Positions 13,401 to 16,400 of a stretch of DNA of 64,000 nucleotides are shown in pieces; position 1 is the stretch's first letter; each line of letters begins with the position of its first letter. The stretch is taken from the NCBI RefSeq assembly GCF_003018255.1, contig NZ_CP027440.1; one strand, 5' to 3'. The DNA comes from Escherichia coli (lineage in GTDB: Bacteria > Pseudomonadota > Gammaproteobacteria > Enterobacterales > Enterobacteriaceae). Position numbers: made by a program.

Positions 13401-16400
13401 AGTAAAGACGCTTGTCCGTTTCACTGCCTGTCGGGCGAGCGCCTTTTAGATCAGAAGTCAACGTTACATGGTCGGCATCTGTCGTAGCGCTTCCCCCTTC
13501 CGAATAGAGCCACGGAATGGTTCCCTGGAAAATATTGGTTTCGCCGCTGTCGACCCAGGCGCTTTCTTCCGCCAGCGCCACAGGTGCCACACAATAACCT
13601 GCCAGTGCCAGCGCCAATGCGATCCGGGTCAGACCGCGTCTTTTATCCTGCTTCATTGATGCTCTCCTTAATGAACCTTCAGCGACTGGCCGACTGGCCT
13701 TACGCCAATCTTATTTTTTGGTATACAGCACGCGTAAACCGTATCCCTGCAAGCCATCTCCCGCTTGTGCGCCATAGGTTTGCGCTGCTTCGCGGTTAGT
13801 GGCCGGAATCACAATGTCCTCATTGGAAGAGTTCGCCTGTGCACCCACTTCACCATTGATGCTCTTGCCGGTAAATTCCCACTTGTAGTCGTACTGCGCC
13901 ATCTCTTCGTCAGTCAGTTTTTCGACCTGCTGGAAGACACCGTCTTTATTGCTGTCACGCCACAAAACAAATCGATAAGTGTTGTTGAGCGGCAGCGGTT
14001 CTTTATCTTTACCTATCAGGTTGCTGGGTTTAGCTGCCCCCACACGATAGATAAATGCATTTAGCCCACCAATTTCTGCCCCGAGGAAAGTGACATCCAC
14101 ATAGTTACTGTCGTCGTAGGGCGCAGCTTTTGCTTTCCAGCGATAGGTGCCGGGTAAGGTACTGGAGAGGGTGACAGTGCCCTTTTCTTTATCTTGTTTA
14201 GCGATAAAAACGCAGGGGTTGTCGGTCGAGCAAGGCTTGTTGGTTAACGTCACTCGTTTGTCCTGCGCGTCGTAAAGCCGCGGCGTGAGGTTATCTTCCG
14301 GCAGCGCATCGCCATTGCGGTCGGTGTTATCGCCAAAGCTGTCGGTTACATCGAGATCCATCACCACACCATCAACGCCATCTGCCTGGGCGCTGGCTTC
14401 GTGGCTGTGGTTGTTCTCTTCCGGCACGTTCGCGATGTTATTAACAATCAACTCAATTTTACGGTCCTGCTGAACGGTGATTTCCACCACACCAGAGTTC
14501 TGTCGGTTGCCCTTTTCATCTTCCAGTGCCAGACGTACTCGCCAGGTATTGAGTTTTTCTTGTTCGGCTTTGTCAGAGCTGTACTGCCAGGCGGGCAGCA
14601 CCAGGTTCCAGTGGTTATTGTTACCCTCTGTCAGGGTATTCTCTTTGATAACCGGCATAACCAGCGTGCGGGCAGCATTGTTTTTCGCCTGCCATGACGC
14701 AGCGACAATTTTGTAGTGGTGGTTGATAAGCGCGTTAATGGTCCACTTACATTTTTCCAGCCCGACCGCCGCTTCAGGCGTATCTTTAATGACACACTCG
14801 GGGTGTTCGTTGGTGGCATCCGCTTTTAACCACAGGGTGACATCAAGCGGATCTTTTTCTTTGTATTCCAGAACAATAAAGTTATTACGCTCAACAAAAT
14901 CATGACGACTGCCCATCAACGAGTGAGCCGCTTTCACTTTATCGCTATCCAATTGATCTTTTAGCGGAACGCCGAACTGATAATTAAGAGTGGCATTAAT
15001 GCTGACATCGCTGTTATCTCCGGTCCCCGCTTTATAGTCCGCCCCAACGGTTAGTAATGGCACCGGTTGATAATTCAGTCCAAGTGTTACCGCGTAGGGA
15101 TCTTTCTCCAAATTATCCGTACCAAAAAGGGCAACTTCATCGCCGTAATATTGCTCGAAGACAACTTTGCCCCCCAGTTGCGGATAAGAAGGTAACCAGG
15201 CTTCGGCGCGAATATCCCAGCCGCGCGCAGGACGCTCCTCATAAAAATCGAAATCTTCGGAGTCTTTCCAGTCAGAAAGCGGATGATAATAGTTGCCAGA
15301 GAATTTTAAATAATCAGTCCACGCTTCGCCGCCTAAACCTAAACGGCGATGTCCTCGGGTAAAATCATAATCATAAAATATATTCCCGCCCAATAACCAT
15401 TCATTAAAATTATGTCTTACCCCAAGACCAATATTCCCGATTGTACGATCTTCTTTTCGCTGCGCAGAAAATTGACTGAAATAAACAGTGGTTTGATTAT
15501 CGTACCAGGGAACAAAATAATCGATGGAACTGCCATCCAGATCGCCGCCCTGGCCAATGGAGAGGTTCGAACGGACCTTACCGTAGGGAGAGAGAGTGTC
15601 TTCAATATAAGATTGTGCGGTTGAGGTGATTTGACTTTGCAGATAGCTTCTGGCCTGAGATTCCAGCGCCTCAGGGGTCAAGTTTTCAAACCCTTGCGTG
15701 GCGGAGTTGATGATGTAATCGGCTCCGCGCTCTTTCAGCGATTTACCCTTGTTGGTTTGTTCATCCTGCTGTGCTGCCTGGCTACCTAAATCAGGTAACG
15801 ATTCGTTTTGCTTAACATTTATCTCTGGTGCCGCGAAAGCAGCACCAGAGATAAATGTTAGAATAATACAGCGTTTCCATCGCAGCATGCACTTTCCCTG
15901 TGACAATGATACAGTCAAAAATAAGCTTTAATATTGTATCCCTGATTATTCAGAAAGGCATGTCATAAAGAATAAATATACTCTTAATTATTTAAATTAG
16001 TGATTTCACTCAATTACATTAGTTATTCCACTAATAACAGATTGTTTTACCATTCACATATTAAATATAAATGATAAAACAATATATTCACATGATATTA
16101 AGCAATAACAAATTCAACGCGTTTTTTAGATATTAAACCGTGCCCATGTTGGCAGAAATAATCCACAACACCACAAGCTTTTAACACTTGTAACGGCTGA
16201 TGACACTCAGGGCAAAGTGCCTGGACGGTAAAGTCTTTGTCGCAAGTTGCACAGTGGGCAGTCTCGCCATTGCGTTCGAGAGGGATTTTGCAGGTTGGAC
16301 AGTTGAGTGCCATAAATACTCCTCACGTGTTATTCGGTTTCCCTCTCCGTGTGGAAAGGGAAACCAGATAAGTGATTACTTACTTTTCTTGATATGCTTC

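What the first reader, a model, noticed from the sequence alone, without database searches (positions are those of the whole stretch)
15813..15860. Perfect 19-bp inverted repeat embedded in the signal-peptide codons of the inverse autotransporter gene
Arms taacatttatctctggtgc and gcaccagagataaatgtta are exact reverse complements separated by 10 nt. On the mRNA this would form a 19-bp stem starting 28 nt after the AUG, just outside the initiating ribosome footprint, encoding LTFISGA...APEINV. Chance occurrence is negligible. It could be a translational roadblock or RNA-level regulatory element, or a DNA-level site for a recombinase or regulator. It also creates the spurious plus-strand ORF 15749..15931.
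Basis: seen in the sequence. Interest (0 to 1): 0.7.

Follow-up and report, generated by a model that had tools for sequence, protein, structure and literature searches.

The report
Conserved mRNA hairpin in sinH signal-peptide codons
The first 76 bases of the E. coli adhesin gene sinH contain a 22-base-pair RNA hairpin that evolution has kept paired, even at the cost of changing the protein, so it is probably an undescribed brake on how much of this vaccine-candidate adhesin is made, although that function is untested.

Summary
A perfect 19-bp inverted repeat (15813-15831 / 15842-15860) lies in codons 10-26 of sinH (minus strand, ATG at 15888). The window is E. coli, not Salmonella. On the mRNA the helix is 22 bp (one U.G pair, 4-nt loop, about -37 kcal/mol). 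About 1e-5 such repeats are expected by chance per window.

It is more than a curiosity. Every Escherichia sinH allele I read (13 distinct gapless hairpin alleles plus one with an indel) keeps the helix: 95.5% of pair cells are paired against 34-48% in slid controls. Several pairs are changed on both sides, some with linked amino-acid changes (F->L with N->S). One allele lost complementary codons from both arms. Pseudocitrobacter keeps the inner 11-13 bp through four or five double-sided changes. Salmonella, Citrobacter and paralogous genes have no such stem.

Arm third-codon positions vary half as often as downstream ones (6/14 vs 82/101, p=0.004), and the loop is the most variable part. Mismatches are mostly G.U on the sense strand.

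Best reading: a selected sense-strand mRNA stem-loop, probably a negative post-transcriptional element (RNase III-size duplex and ribosome-unwinding barrier), kept symmetric partly by replication template switching. The function is untested. It is not a terminator, repeat element, recombinase site, operator or Rfam family.

The parts
13711..15888 (-). sinH (iatB) coding sequence, intimin-like inverse autotransporter, 725 aa
   Evidence: ORF and translation. RefSeq annotation of 99%-identical E. coli loci as sinH. PF11924 IAT_beta on homologues.
15892..15899 (-). Shine-Dalgarno-like AGGGAAAG, 3 nt upstream of the ATG; not part of the helix
   Evidence: Read directly from the sequence. Conserved as AGGGAAA / AGGAAAA in E. 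coli alleles.
15886..15888 (-). sinH start codon ATG (mRNA nt 1-3)
   Evidence: The same start is annotated in RefSeq genomes.
15839..15860 (-). 5' arm of the mRNA helix (mRNA nt 29-50; codons 10-17, LTFISGAA; signal-peptide h/c region). The perfect Watson-Crick part is 15842-15860.
15835..15838 (-). Tetraloop UUUC (mRNA nt 51-54). Its sequence is not conserved: UUUC, UUUU, UUAU and GUGU in different alleles.
   Evidence: It has the highest divergence of any partition (0.35).
15813..15834 (-). 3' arm of the mRNA helix (mRNA nt 55-76; codons 19-26, A|APEINV). The predicted signal-peptidase site AFA|AP falls at nt 57/58 (window 15832/15831). The perfect Watson-Crick part is 15813-15831.
   Evidence: The cleavage site is inferred from the A-X-A rule, not tested.
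15749..15931 (+). Mechanical antisense ORF (60 aa, TTG start) reading through the palindrome; not a gene
   Evidence: Its frame carries stop codons in most other alleles.

Best explanation
The inverted repeat is a sense-strand mRNA stem-loop built into codons 10-26 of sinH. These codons encode the signal-peptide core, the signal-peptidase site and the first residues of the mature protein. Selection maintains the pairing in the Escherichia lineage. Shown: the helix is 22 bp at about -37 kcal/mol. It begins at nt 29, so it does not include the Shine-Dalgarno sequence or the AUG. The pairing, not the sequence or the peptide, is what is conserved. The register pairs third codon positions with third codon positions (nt n pairs with nt 105-n), which makes 7 of the 22 pairs cheap to compensate. 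Inferred: the helix acts as a negative post-transcriptional element. On transcripts not covered by ribosomes it offers an uninterrupted duplex of about two helical turns, the minimal size for RNase III, and cleavage there would cut inside the signal-peptide codons and inactivate the message. An initiated ribosome would reach the base of the helix after about five codons, while it still occupies the start site. Slow unwinding would therefore space out initiations. Either route caps SinH output from a LeuO-activated adhesin gene of the H-NS-silenced type. My split between the two routes is roughly 55:45 for RNase III or mRNA decay versus ribosome barrier. The sign of the effect is not established; a stabilising role is possible. 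The symmetric multi-nucleotide changes (matched codon deletions, outward growth of the palindrome) were probably supplied by replication template switching between the arms, with selection retaining the paired products.
For: Structure and significance.

Conservation of pairing: 13 distinct Escherichia alleles have 95.5% of cells paired against 34-48% with partners slid. Four pairs change on both sides (6/500 shuffles reach this). The covariation score is 0.153 against at most 0.076 in the slid controls. With Pseudocitrobacter added, 8 pairs change on both sides and 0/500 shuffles reach the observed values. RNAalifold, given no structure, recovers the inner 13 bp, with 5 compensatory pairs.

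Specific events: In E. albertii A5-U->G-C and U6-A->C-G, accompanied by F->L and N->S. Pair 4 is seen as C-G, U.G and U-A. Pair 17 is seen as U-A, U.G, UxU (L073), G.U (allele C) and A-U (L096), which means pairing was restored twice from a mismatched intermediate, once to a pair that exists only in RNA. Allele VE-T9 lost complementary TGG and CCA codons and still forms a 20-21 bp helix.

Nucleotide-level constraint: third codon positions vary at 6/14 in the arms against 82/101 downstream (Fisher p=0.004). Mean divergence is 0.106 in the arms, 0.19-0.21 in the flanks and 0.35 in the loop. Resampling synonymous codons gives z of -1.9 to -3.9 in Escherichia (six of seven sequences at or below -3.1).

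Strand: the non-Watson-Crick cells in the first 8 Escherichia alleles are 17 G.U, 2 A.C and 4 other. Every Escherichia allele, and three of the four Pseudocitrobacter-type sequences, folds more stably as sense than as antisense.

Not a known element: no Rfam family, no terminator or promoter consensus, single copy per genome.

Literature: The minimal RNase III duplex is 22 nt and coding-region targets are known (PMC5371410). Many in-vivo RNase III sites lie in coding sequences (PMC6212723). Nucleotide changes in the fdnG signal-peptide region raised production up to 60-fold, correlating with less mRNA structure (Punginelli 2004, as summarised in PMC7137448). iatB/sinH transcription is raised by LeuO (PMC6714894).
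Against: There are no expression, cleavage or ribosome data for this helix, so the function, and even its sign, is inference. The sense-strand bias counted as independent events is only about 9 G.U against 3 A.C (p about 0.07). Alleles with weakened helices exist in intact genes: allele E has a 2-nt internal loop (-27 kcal/mol), and H and H2 are at about -25. A perfect helix is therefore not essential. Salmonella, Citrobacter and other sinH orthologues manage without any such stem. Perfect inverted repeats are conserved genome-wide in proteobacteria by a mechanism proposed to be non-adaptive (PMC5941160). The alleles are phylogenetically related, so shuffle statistics overstate independence. 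The third-position test rests on 14 sites.
Confidence: 0.55

Rival explanations
1. Neutral coding palindrome. The inverted repeat has no function. It arose and is kept near-perfect by replication template switching (quasipalindrome correction), which copies one arm onto the other. This produces apparent compensatory changes, symmetric indels and outward growth without selection.
For: Allele VE-T9 has exactly complementary 3-nt deletions in both arms plus two double-sided switches. Allele C extended the palindrome by 6 bp (TTATGC/GCATAA) through clustered non-synonymous changes. The Escherichia-specific outer right arm (AAATGTTA) differs from the Pseudocitrobacter sequence by a block of adjacent bases and equals the reverse complement of the left arm. 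Published support: perfect inverted repeats are conserved more than expected in proteobacteria, attributed to template switching (PMC5941160). Template switching homogenises arms in coding DNA and causes several neighbouring amino-acid replacements (PMC8604942). Quasipalindrome hotspots are documented in E. coli (PMC7202029). The N-terminal linker of the mature protein is poorly conserved between genera, so the protein tolerates such changes.
Against: Arm homogenisation does not lower the substitution rate. Yet third positions in the arms, which pair with each other and are free at the protein level, vary half as often as downstream ones (p=0.004), while the loop is hypervariable. The U.G at pair 20 has persisted uncorrected in all 13 Escherichia alleles. 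Pair 17 was restored from UxU to G.U in allele C, and common allele B carries U.G; a DNA copying mechanism does not produce these outcomes. Mismatches are biased towards the sense strand.
Confidence: 0.27
2. DNA-level functional site. The palindrome is bound by a dimeric regulator, or is a recombinase or invertase substrate, or is a cruciform or single-strand DNA hairpin signal.
For: It is perfectly symmetric in the window's allele. It lies in a gene of the H-NS/LeuO-regulated type (PMC6714894). IS1 insertions occur close by in two genomes.
Against: The half-site sequence changes while complementarity is kept, which is covariation rather than motif conservation. The most common E. coli alleles are imperfect as DNA (T:G or G:T) but paired as RNA. 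No allele among more than 50 loci read has an inverted spacer. No recombinase gene is nearby; the neighbours are der, yfgJ, sinI and a giant adhesin. It is single-copy.
Confidence: 0.06
3. By-product of protein-level constraint. The signal-peptide and cleavage-site residues (Ala-rich GCN codons on both sides of A-X-A) generate complementarity by themselves, and the rest is coincidence.
For: With codons resampled at random for the same peptide, the region still folds at about -20 kcal/mol on average. The inner pairs are GCUGC/GCGGC from Ala codons.
Against: The observed energy is 3-4 sd below the synonymous-resampled distribution. Amino acids change in concert so as to keep pairs (F->L with N->S; Gly and Pro codons deleted together). 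Orthologues and paralogues with equally good signal peptides have no helix.
Confidence: 0.04

Closest known systems
Stem-loop in the fdnG (formate dehydrogenase-N) Tat signal-peptide coding region of E. coli (Punginelli et al. 2004, J Bacteriol 186:6311; read here only through its summary in PMC7137448)
   Same: An mRNA secondary structure lies inside signal-peptide codons of an exported E. coli protein. Nucleotide changes that reduce the structure raise production, by up to 60-fold.
   Different: The fdnG effect was attributed to structure in the translation initiation region. The sinH helix is self-contained, starts at nt 29, leaves the SD and AUG free, is much longer (22 bp) and extends past the cleavage site into the mature protein. 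No experiment exists for sinH.
RNase III cleavage sites within coding regions (nirB, arfA, mltD, betT; PMC5371410, PMC4067347, PMC6212723)
   Same: An intramolecular duplex of about 22 bp or more inside an ORF, where cleavage inactivates the message and lets RNase III activity set the expression level.
   Different: Cleavage of sinH mRNA has not been tested. K-12, where the global maps were made, lacks sinH. I did not score the substrate against the in-vivo sequence preferences.
Perfect inverted repeats maintained by template switching / quasipalindrome correction (PMC5941160, PMC8604942, PMC7202029)
   Same: Arms are homogenised. There are clustered multi-nucleotide and symmetric changes, with amino-acid replacements as a side effect in coding DNA.
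   Different: Here there are also signs of selection that the mechanism alone does not predict: lowered third-position variability, persistent and newly created G.U pairs, and a sense-strand bias.
Intrinsic terminators and REP/BIME palindromes
   Same: A stable hairpin in a bacterial transcript.
   Different: There is no U tract. It is inside a coding sequence, single-copy per genome, and there is no Rfam match.

Membership tests
Intrinsic (Rho-independent) terminator | G+C-rich stem followed immediately by a run of U | tested here: not met
   The scan found 0 terminator-like sites in 15600-16400. The helix is followed by AAGCAAAACGAA.
Repeated palindromic element (REP/BIME, MITE) | Many copies per genome | tested here: not met
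   There is one place per genome with an 801-nt query. The second 'place' seen with a 140-nt query is the palindrome matching its own reverse complement.
Curated RNA family (Rfam 15) | Match at or above a family's gathering score | tested here: not met
   Only generic miRNA-precursor hairpins at 24-26 bits against gathering scores of 70-95. Nothing at this site in the whole-window gathering scan.
Structured cis-regulatory mRNA element (generic) | Base pairing conserved through compensatory and wobble substitutions across homologues | tested here: met
.
Structured cis-regulatory mRNA element (generic) | Demonstrated effect of the structure on expression | not testable with these tools
   This needs reporter fusions with disrupting and compensating mutations.
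RNase III substrate | Uninterrupted intramolecular duplex of about two helical turns (about 22 bp) | tested here: met
   22 bp in alleles A-D, 28 bp with one bulge in allele C, and 20-21 bp in VE-T9. The size criterion is from PMC5371410.
RNase III substrate | Staggered double cleavage with 2-nt 3' overhangs, dependent on rnc | not testable with these tools
   No data are available. K-12 cleavage maps do not cover sinH.
Template-switch (quasipalindrome) inverted repeat | Clustered or symmetric multi-nucleotide changes that make the arms more complementary | tested here: met
   Complementary TGG/CCA deletions. A 6-bp outward extension in allele C. This fits the published model (PMC5941160, PMC8604942) but does not exclude selection.
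Site-specific invertase / recombinase site | Alternative orientations of the segment between the repeats; recombinase gene nearby | tested here: not met
   The spacer is 4-10 nt and no inverted-spacer allele appears in more than 50 loci. The neighbouring genes are der, yfgJ, sinI and an adhesin.
Palindromic operator for a dimeric DNA-binding protein | Half-site sequence conserved, with no requirement for complementarity | tested here: not met
   The half-site sequence varies (TAACAT, TAATAT, TAACGC, TACTAT; inner TCTGGTGC against TCAGGCTC) while complementarity is kept.
RNA thermometer / SD-sequestering hairpin | A weak helix that occludes the SD or AUG and melts near 37 C | tested here: not met
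   The helix starts at nt 29, excludes the SD and AUG, and has about -37 kcal/mol.

The most novel reading that the evidence does not exclude
The sinH helix is a self-maintaining coding palindrome that works as a post-transcriptional gate for an ExPEC adhesin. RNase III or ribosome traffic reads the duplex. Template switching keeps renewing it. As a result the signal peptide and the first residues of the mature protein co-evolve through RNA pairing: the mature N-terminus APEINV is in effect the reverse-complement read-out of the signal-peptide core LTFISG. That would be a natural case in which an RNA structure dictates linked amino-acid substitutions and matched codon deletions in a secreted virulence protein.
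Probability: 0.3. Interest if true: 0.65.

Novelty: new member of a known kind. Interest (0 to 1): 0.5.

Why it matters
SinH (IatB) is an inverse-autotransporter adhesin of extraintestinal pathogenic E. coli and a vaccine antigen under study (PMC9937491). Only a transcriptional input, LeuO, is known for its control (PMC6714894). A conserved 22-bp helix in its first 76 coding bases would be a second, post-transcriptional layer. It would matter practically, because constructs that keep or recode the native signal sequence would express very differently. It is also a clear natural example for two general questions. One is how far RNA structure can constrain protein sequence: here paired amino-acid substitutions and paired codon deletions straddle a signal-peptidase site. 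The other is how to tell selection on RNA pairing from non-adaptive homogenisation of inverted repeats by template switching. Third positions pair with third positions here, so clean synonymous disrupt-and-restore experiments are possible.

Tried and rejected
1. Known RNA family: Rfam at permissive E-value on 15400-16400 and at gathering score on the whole window found nothing real at the site.
2. Terminator or promoter: none by consensus scan.
3. Second genomic copy or mobile element: the '2 places per record' result was the palindrome matching itself.
4. Family-wide trait: 30 paralogous inverse-autotransporter loci show no comparable helix. Their z-scores centre on 0, and the outliers L043, L048, L021 and L030 have branched structures rather than one long helix. 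My start-codon choice for these was heuristic.
5. Link between a weakened stem and gene decay: allele E (2-nt internal loop) is a pseudogene in O145:H28 and is IS1-disrupted in one strain, but it is intact in L003, L067 and L071, so there is no link.
7. Alternative pairing of the left arm (UCUCUG) with the SD (CAGGGA): considered only by reading the sequence. I dropped it because the E. albertii SD (AAGGAU) does not keep the complementarity. It was not tested with a tool.
8. Spacer inversion as a phase switch: the inverted loop would give AAKAA instead of AAFAA and keep an A-X-A site, and no such allele was seen.
9. The primary fdnG paper could not be retrieved. It is cited only via PMC7137448 and PMC5875014.
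10. The event-level G.U versus A.C test did not reach significance and is reported as suggestive only.
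Full report
**1. What is there**

The window carries, on its minus strand, an ORF with ATG at 15888-15886 and a stop at 13711. Its 5' region is 99-99.9% identical to chromosomes of E. coli strains in which RefSeq annotates sinH, 'intimin-like inverse autotransporter SinH'. The upstream neighbours are ispG, hisS, yfgM, bamB, der and yfgJ. The downstream neighbours are a sinI-family gene and a giant adhesin gene. The window is therefore E. coli, not Salmonella. Salmonella SinH is only about 74% identical. 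About 1,700-1,746 of 5,426 complete E. coli genomes carry the gene. In E. coli it was studied as iatB, whose promoter activity rises with LeuO (PMC6714894).

On the mRNA strand the helix continues inward through U.G, G-C and C-G. The result is 22 bp closed by a UUUC tetraloop, covering mRNA nt 29-76, which are codons 10-26 of MLRWKRCIILTFISGAAFA|APEINV. It thus covers the hydrophobic core of the signal peptide, the predicted A-X-A cleavage site and the first six residues of the mature protein.

It is the longest perfect inverted repeat in the window. Twenty shuffles never gave arms longer than 12, and about 1e-5 are expected. The 5' 162 nt fold at z = -6.0 relative to dinucleotide shuffles.

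**2. Is the pairing conserved?**

I collected sinH 5' ends from four sources:
- species-representative genomes;
- complete E. coli genomes across the identity spectrum;
- one Salmonella contig;
- a metagenome scan anchored about 210 nt downstream of the start, independent of the stem.

In Escherichia I found 13 distinct gapless alleles of the hairpin region plus one with indels. On the 13 alleles, 95.5% of pair cells form standard pairs, against 34-48% when the 3' partners are slid by 1-3 columns. Four pairs change on both sides (6 of 500 shuffles reach this). The covariation score is 0.153 against at most 0.076 in the slid controls.

Adding three Pseudocitrobacter sequences gives 8 pairs with double-sided change, and 0 of 500 shuffles reach any of the five measures. 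RNAalifold, given no structure, returns the inner 13 pairs, 5 of them with compensatory change.

Individual events are informative:
- E. albertii switched two adjacent pairs on both sides (A-U to G-C, U-A to C-G), which changed F to L in the signal peptide and N to S in the mature protein.
- Pair 4 exists as C-G, U.G and U-A.
- Pair 17 exists as U-A (this window), U.G (the commonest E. coli allele), UxU (metagenome allele L073), G.U (allele C, about 190 genomes) and A-U (L096). A mismatched intermediate was therefore repaired twice, once to a pair that exists only in RNA.
- E. coli VE-T9 has lost TGG from the left arm and the complementary CCA from the right arm, switched two more pairs on both sides, and still forms a 20-21 bp helix.
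- Allele C has grown outward by six pairs (TTATGC/GCATAA) through amino-acid-changing substitutions, reaching about -44 kcal/mol.
- Pseudocitrobacter vendiensis keeps the inner 11 pairs with four or five double-sided changes (TCAGGCTCGGT/GCCGAGCCTGA against TCTGGTGCTGC/GCGGCACCAGA).

Salmonella, Citrobacter, Superficieibacter, Leminorella and a divergent Escherichia lineage have no helix. Nor do 30 paralogous inverse-autotransporter loci. The long helix is thus a derived feature of Escherichia sinH, built on a shorter one shared with Pseudocitrobacter.

**3. Selection or mutational mechanism?**

The symmetric deletion and the block-wise outward extension are what replication template switching between inverted-repeat arms produces. 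That mechanism has been proposed to explain why perfect inverted repeats are conserved in proteobacteria without adaptive cause (PMC5941160). It has also been shown to homogenise arms and create clustered amino-acid changes in coding DNA (PMC8604942), and quasipalindrome hotspots are documented in E. coli (PMC7202029). I think it contributes here. Four observations, however, are not predicted by it alone.

(a) Copying between arms does not lower the substitution rate. Yet arm third codon positions vary at 6/14 against 82/101 in the next 300 nt (Fisher p = 0.004). Mean pairwise divergence is 0.106 in the arms, 0.19-0.21 in the flanks and 0.35 in the loop. The coordinates show that nt n pairs with nt 105-n, so third positions pair with third positions. 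Seven pairs are therefore nearly free at the protein level, which makes their stillness harder to attribute to the protein.

(b) The U.G at pair 20 has stayed uncorrected in all 13 Escherichia alleles.

(c) New G.U pairs arise and reach high frequency (alleles B and C), and G.U is not a product of DNA copying.

(d) Non-Watson-Crick cells are mostly G.U on the sense strand: 17 G.U, 2 A.C and 4 other in the first eight Escherichia alleles. Every Escherichia allele, and three of the four Pseudocitrobacter-type sequences, folds more stably as sense than as antisense.

Counted as independent events the bias is only about 9 to 3 (p about 0.07), so I treat it as suggestive.

Against strict necessity, alleles with a 2-nt internal loop or one or two mismatches (-20 to -27 kcal/mol) sit in intact genes, and other genera do without the helix.

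**4. How it most likely works**

*Shown.* The helix excludes the SD (15899-15892) and the AUG, and starts 25 nt after the AUG triplet. It is not followed by a U tract, and no promoter-like site overlaps it. It is not a repeated element or an Rfam family.

*Inferred from established knowledge of bacterial translation and RNA decay (my own knowledge unless a paper is cited).* The initiating ribosome covers roughly to nt +15 to +19, so initiation itself should be unhindered. The ribosome's helicase site lies about 11-13 nt ahead of the P site, so it meets the base of the helix when the P site is near codon 6. At that point the ribosome still covers the start site, and slow unwinding of a -37 kcal/mol duplex would space out initiations.

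Between ribosomes, or on poorly translated transcripts, the helix is an uninterrupted duplex of two helical turns. That is the minimal RNase III substrate size quoted in PMC5371410. RNase III sites inside coding sequences are numerous in vivo (PMC6212723) and can set mRNA stability in response to stress (betT, PMC4067347).

Both routes predict that the helix lowers SinH output. I favour RNase III or decay slightly because helix length (20-22 bp or more) is what is retained, even after the VE-T9 rearrangement, but nothing here tests it. A stabilising role is not excluded. The nearest experimental precedent is the structure in the fdnG signal-peptide codons, whose weakening raised production up to 60-fold (Punginelli 2004, as summarised in PMC7137448; I could not retrieve the original).

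**5. Alternatives**

- Pure template-switch palindrome without function: about 0.27.
- DNA-level site (operator, recombinase, cruciform): about 0.06. The sequence covaries rather than being conserved, the common alleles are imperfect as DNA, no spacer-inverted allele was seen, and no recombinase gene is nearby.
- By-product of Ala-rich cleavage-site codons: about 0.04. The peptide alone gives about -20 kcal/mol, but the real sequence is 3-4 sd lower, and amino acids change so as to keep pairs.

**6. Novelty and verdict**

The two E. coli SinH/IatB papers I searched do not mention a hairpin, stem-loop or secondary structure, and Rfam has nothing. The kind of thing is known: a structured element in early coding sequence, RNase III-size duplexes in ORFs, and inverted repeats maintained by template switching. 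I therefore rate it a new member of a known kind.

Its appeal lies in the clean evolutionary signal, with linked amino-acid substitutions and matched codon deletions across a signal-peptidase site. It also lies in the fact that the gene is a vaccine-candidate adhesin. The function remains to be shown. Interest 0.5.

Noticed in passing
window 12603-12637 and 12640-12668 (minus strand, between the sinI-family gene stop and the ATG at 12558 of the 2,684-aa adhesin ORF): There are two further hairpins in the same operon. One is a perfect 17-bp palindrome, CATATTTTGCTTAATCC/GGATTAAGCAAAATATG. Its core TTTGCTTAA...TTAAGCAAA is conserved in sequence in Escherichia, Pseudocitrobacter and Citrobacter loci. 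The other is AGCATTCCC-gcaa-GGGAATGCT, which covaries between genera (for example AGCACCATTCCC/GGGAATGGTGCT and AAACGCCATTCC/GGAATGGCGTTT). They may be an intercistronic processing, termination or regulatory site for the downstream giant adhesin gene.
   Followed up: partly
L064 (E. coli ESDR8, NZ_CM169472.1) and hit H1 (NZ_CM128590.1): IS1 insertions lie next to the hairpin region. In ESDR8 an IS1B interrupts sinH about 10 nt after the 3' end of the helix. In strain 200164 an IS1 lies within the 801-nt yfgJ-sinH 5' stretch.
   Followed up: partly
L063 (E. coli O145:H28 12E115): sinH is annotated as a frameshifted pseudogene in this EHEC lineage. The same hairpin allele (E) occurs in intact genes elsewhere.
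   Followed up: yes
L001 and L034 (contigs of 'MAG: Collinsella sp. isolate Map_57_008'): This actinobacterial MAG holds contigs with 99%-identical E. coli sinH and a second E. coli-type inverse-autotransporter gene. These are almost certainly mis-binned Enterobacteriaceae contigs. A 'Methanosarcina mazei' partial protein (P0047) among the hits looks like similar contamination.
   Followed up: no
window 33837-33874: A perfect 16-bp palindrome, GCAATAAAAAACCGCC-gaatct-GGCGGTTTTTTATTGC, with A/T runs on both sides. It looks like a bidirectional intrinsic terminator just after the ORF 32821-33825 and upstream of the IS128/ryfA sRNA genes.
   Followed up: no
window 23574-23609: A perfect 13-bp inverted repeat, ATTACGCCACGGT-acataaagta-ACCGTGGCGTAAT, lies immediately downstream of the minus-strand ORF 23615-24769.
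   Followed up: no
window 21087-21178, 34001-34209, 34341-34645, 41878-41987, 53992-54070: Rfam matches above gathering score: sroE, IS128, ryfA, the iscRS stability element and naRNA4. These fit an ordinary E. coli chromosomal region around the isc operon.
   Followed up: no
L043:3731-3880 (Enterobacterales bacterium CwR94, paralogous inverse autotransporter): The first 150 nt of this unrelated inverse-autotransporter gene are unusually structured for their peptide (z = -4.2 against synonymous resampling, -50 kcal/mol). The structure is branched rather than a single long helix, and my start-codon choice was heuristic.
   Followed up: partly
window 16036-16088: An imperfect 24-nt inverted repeat (79% complementary) lies in the very A+T-rich region upstream of sinH, where the promoter and H-NS/LeuO control would be expected.
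   Followed up: no
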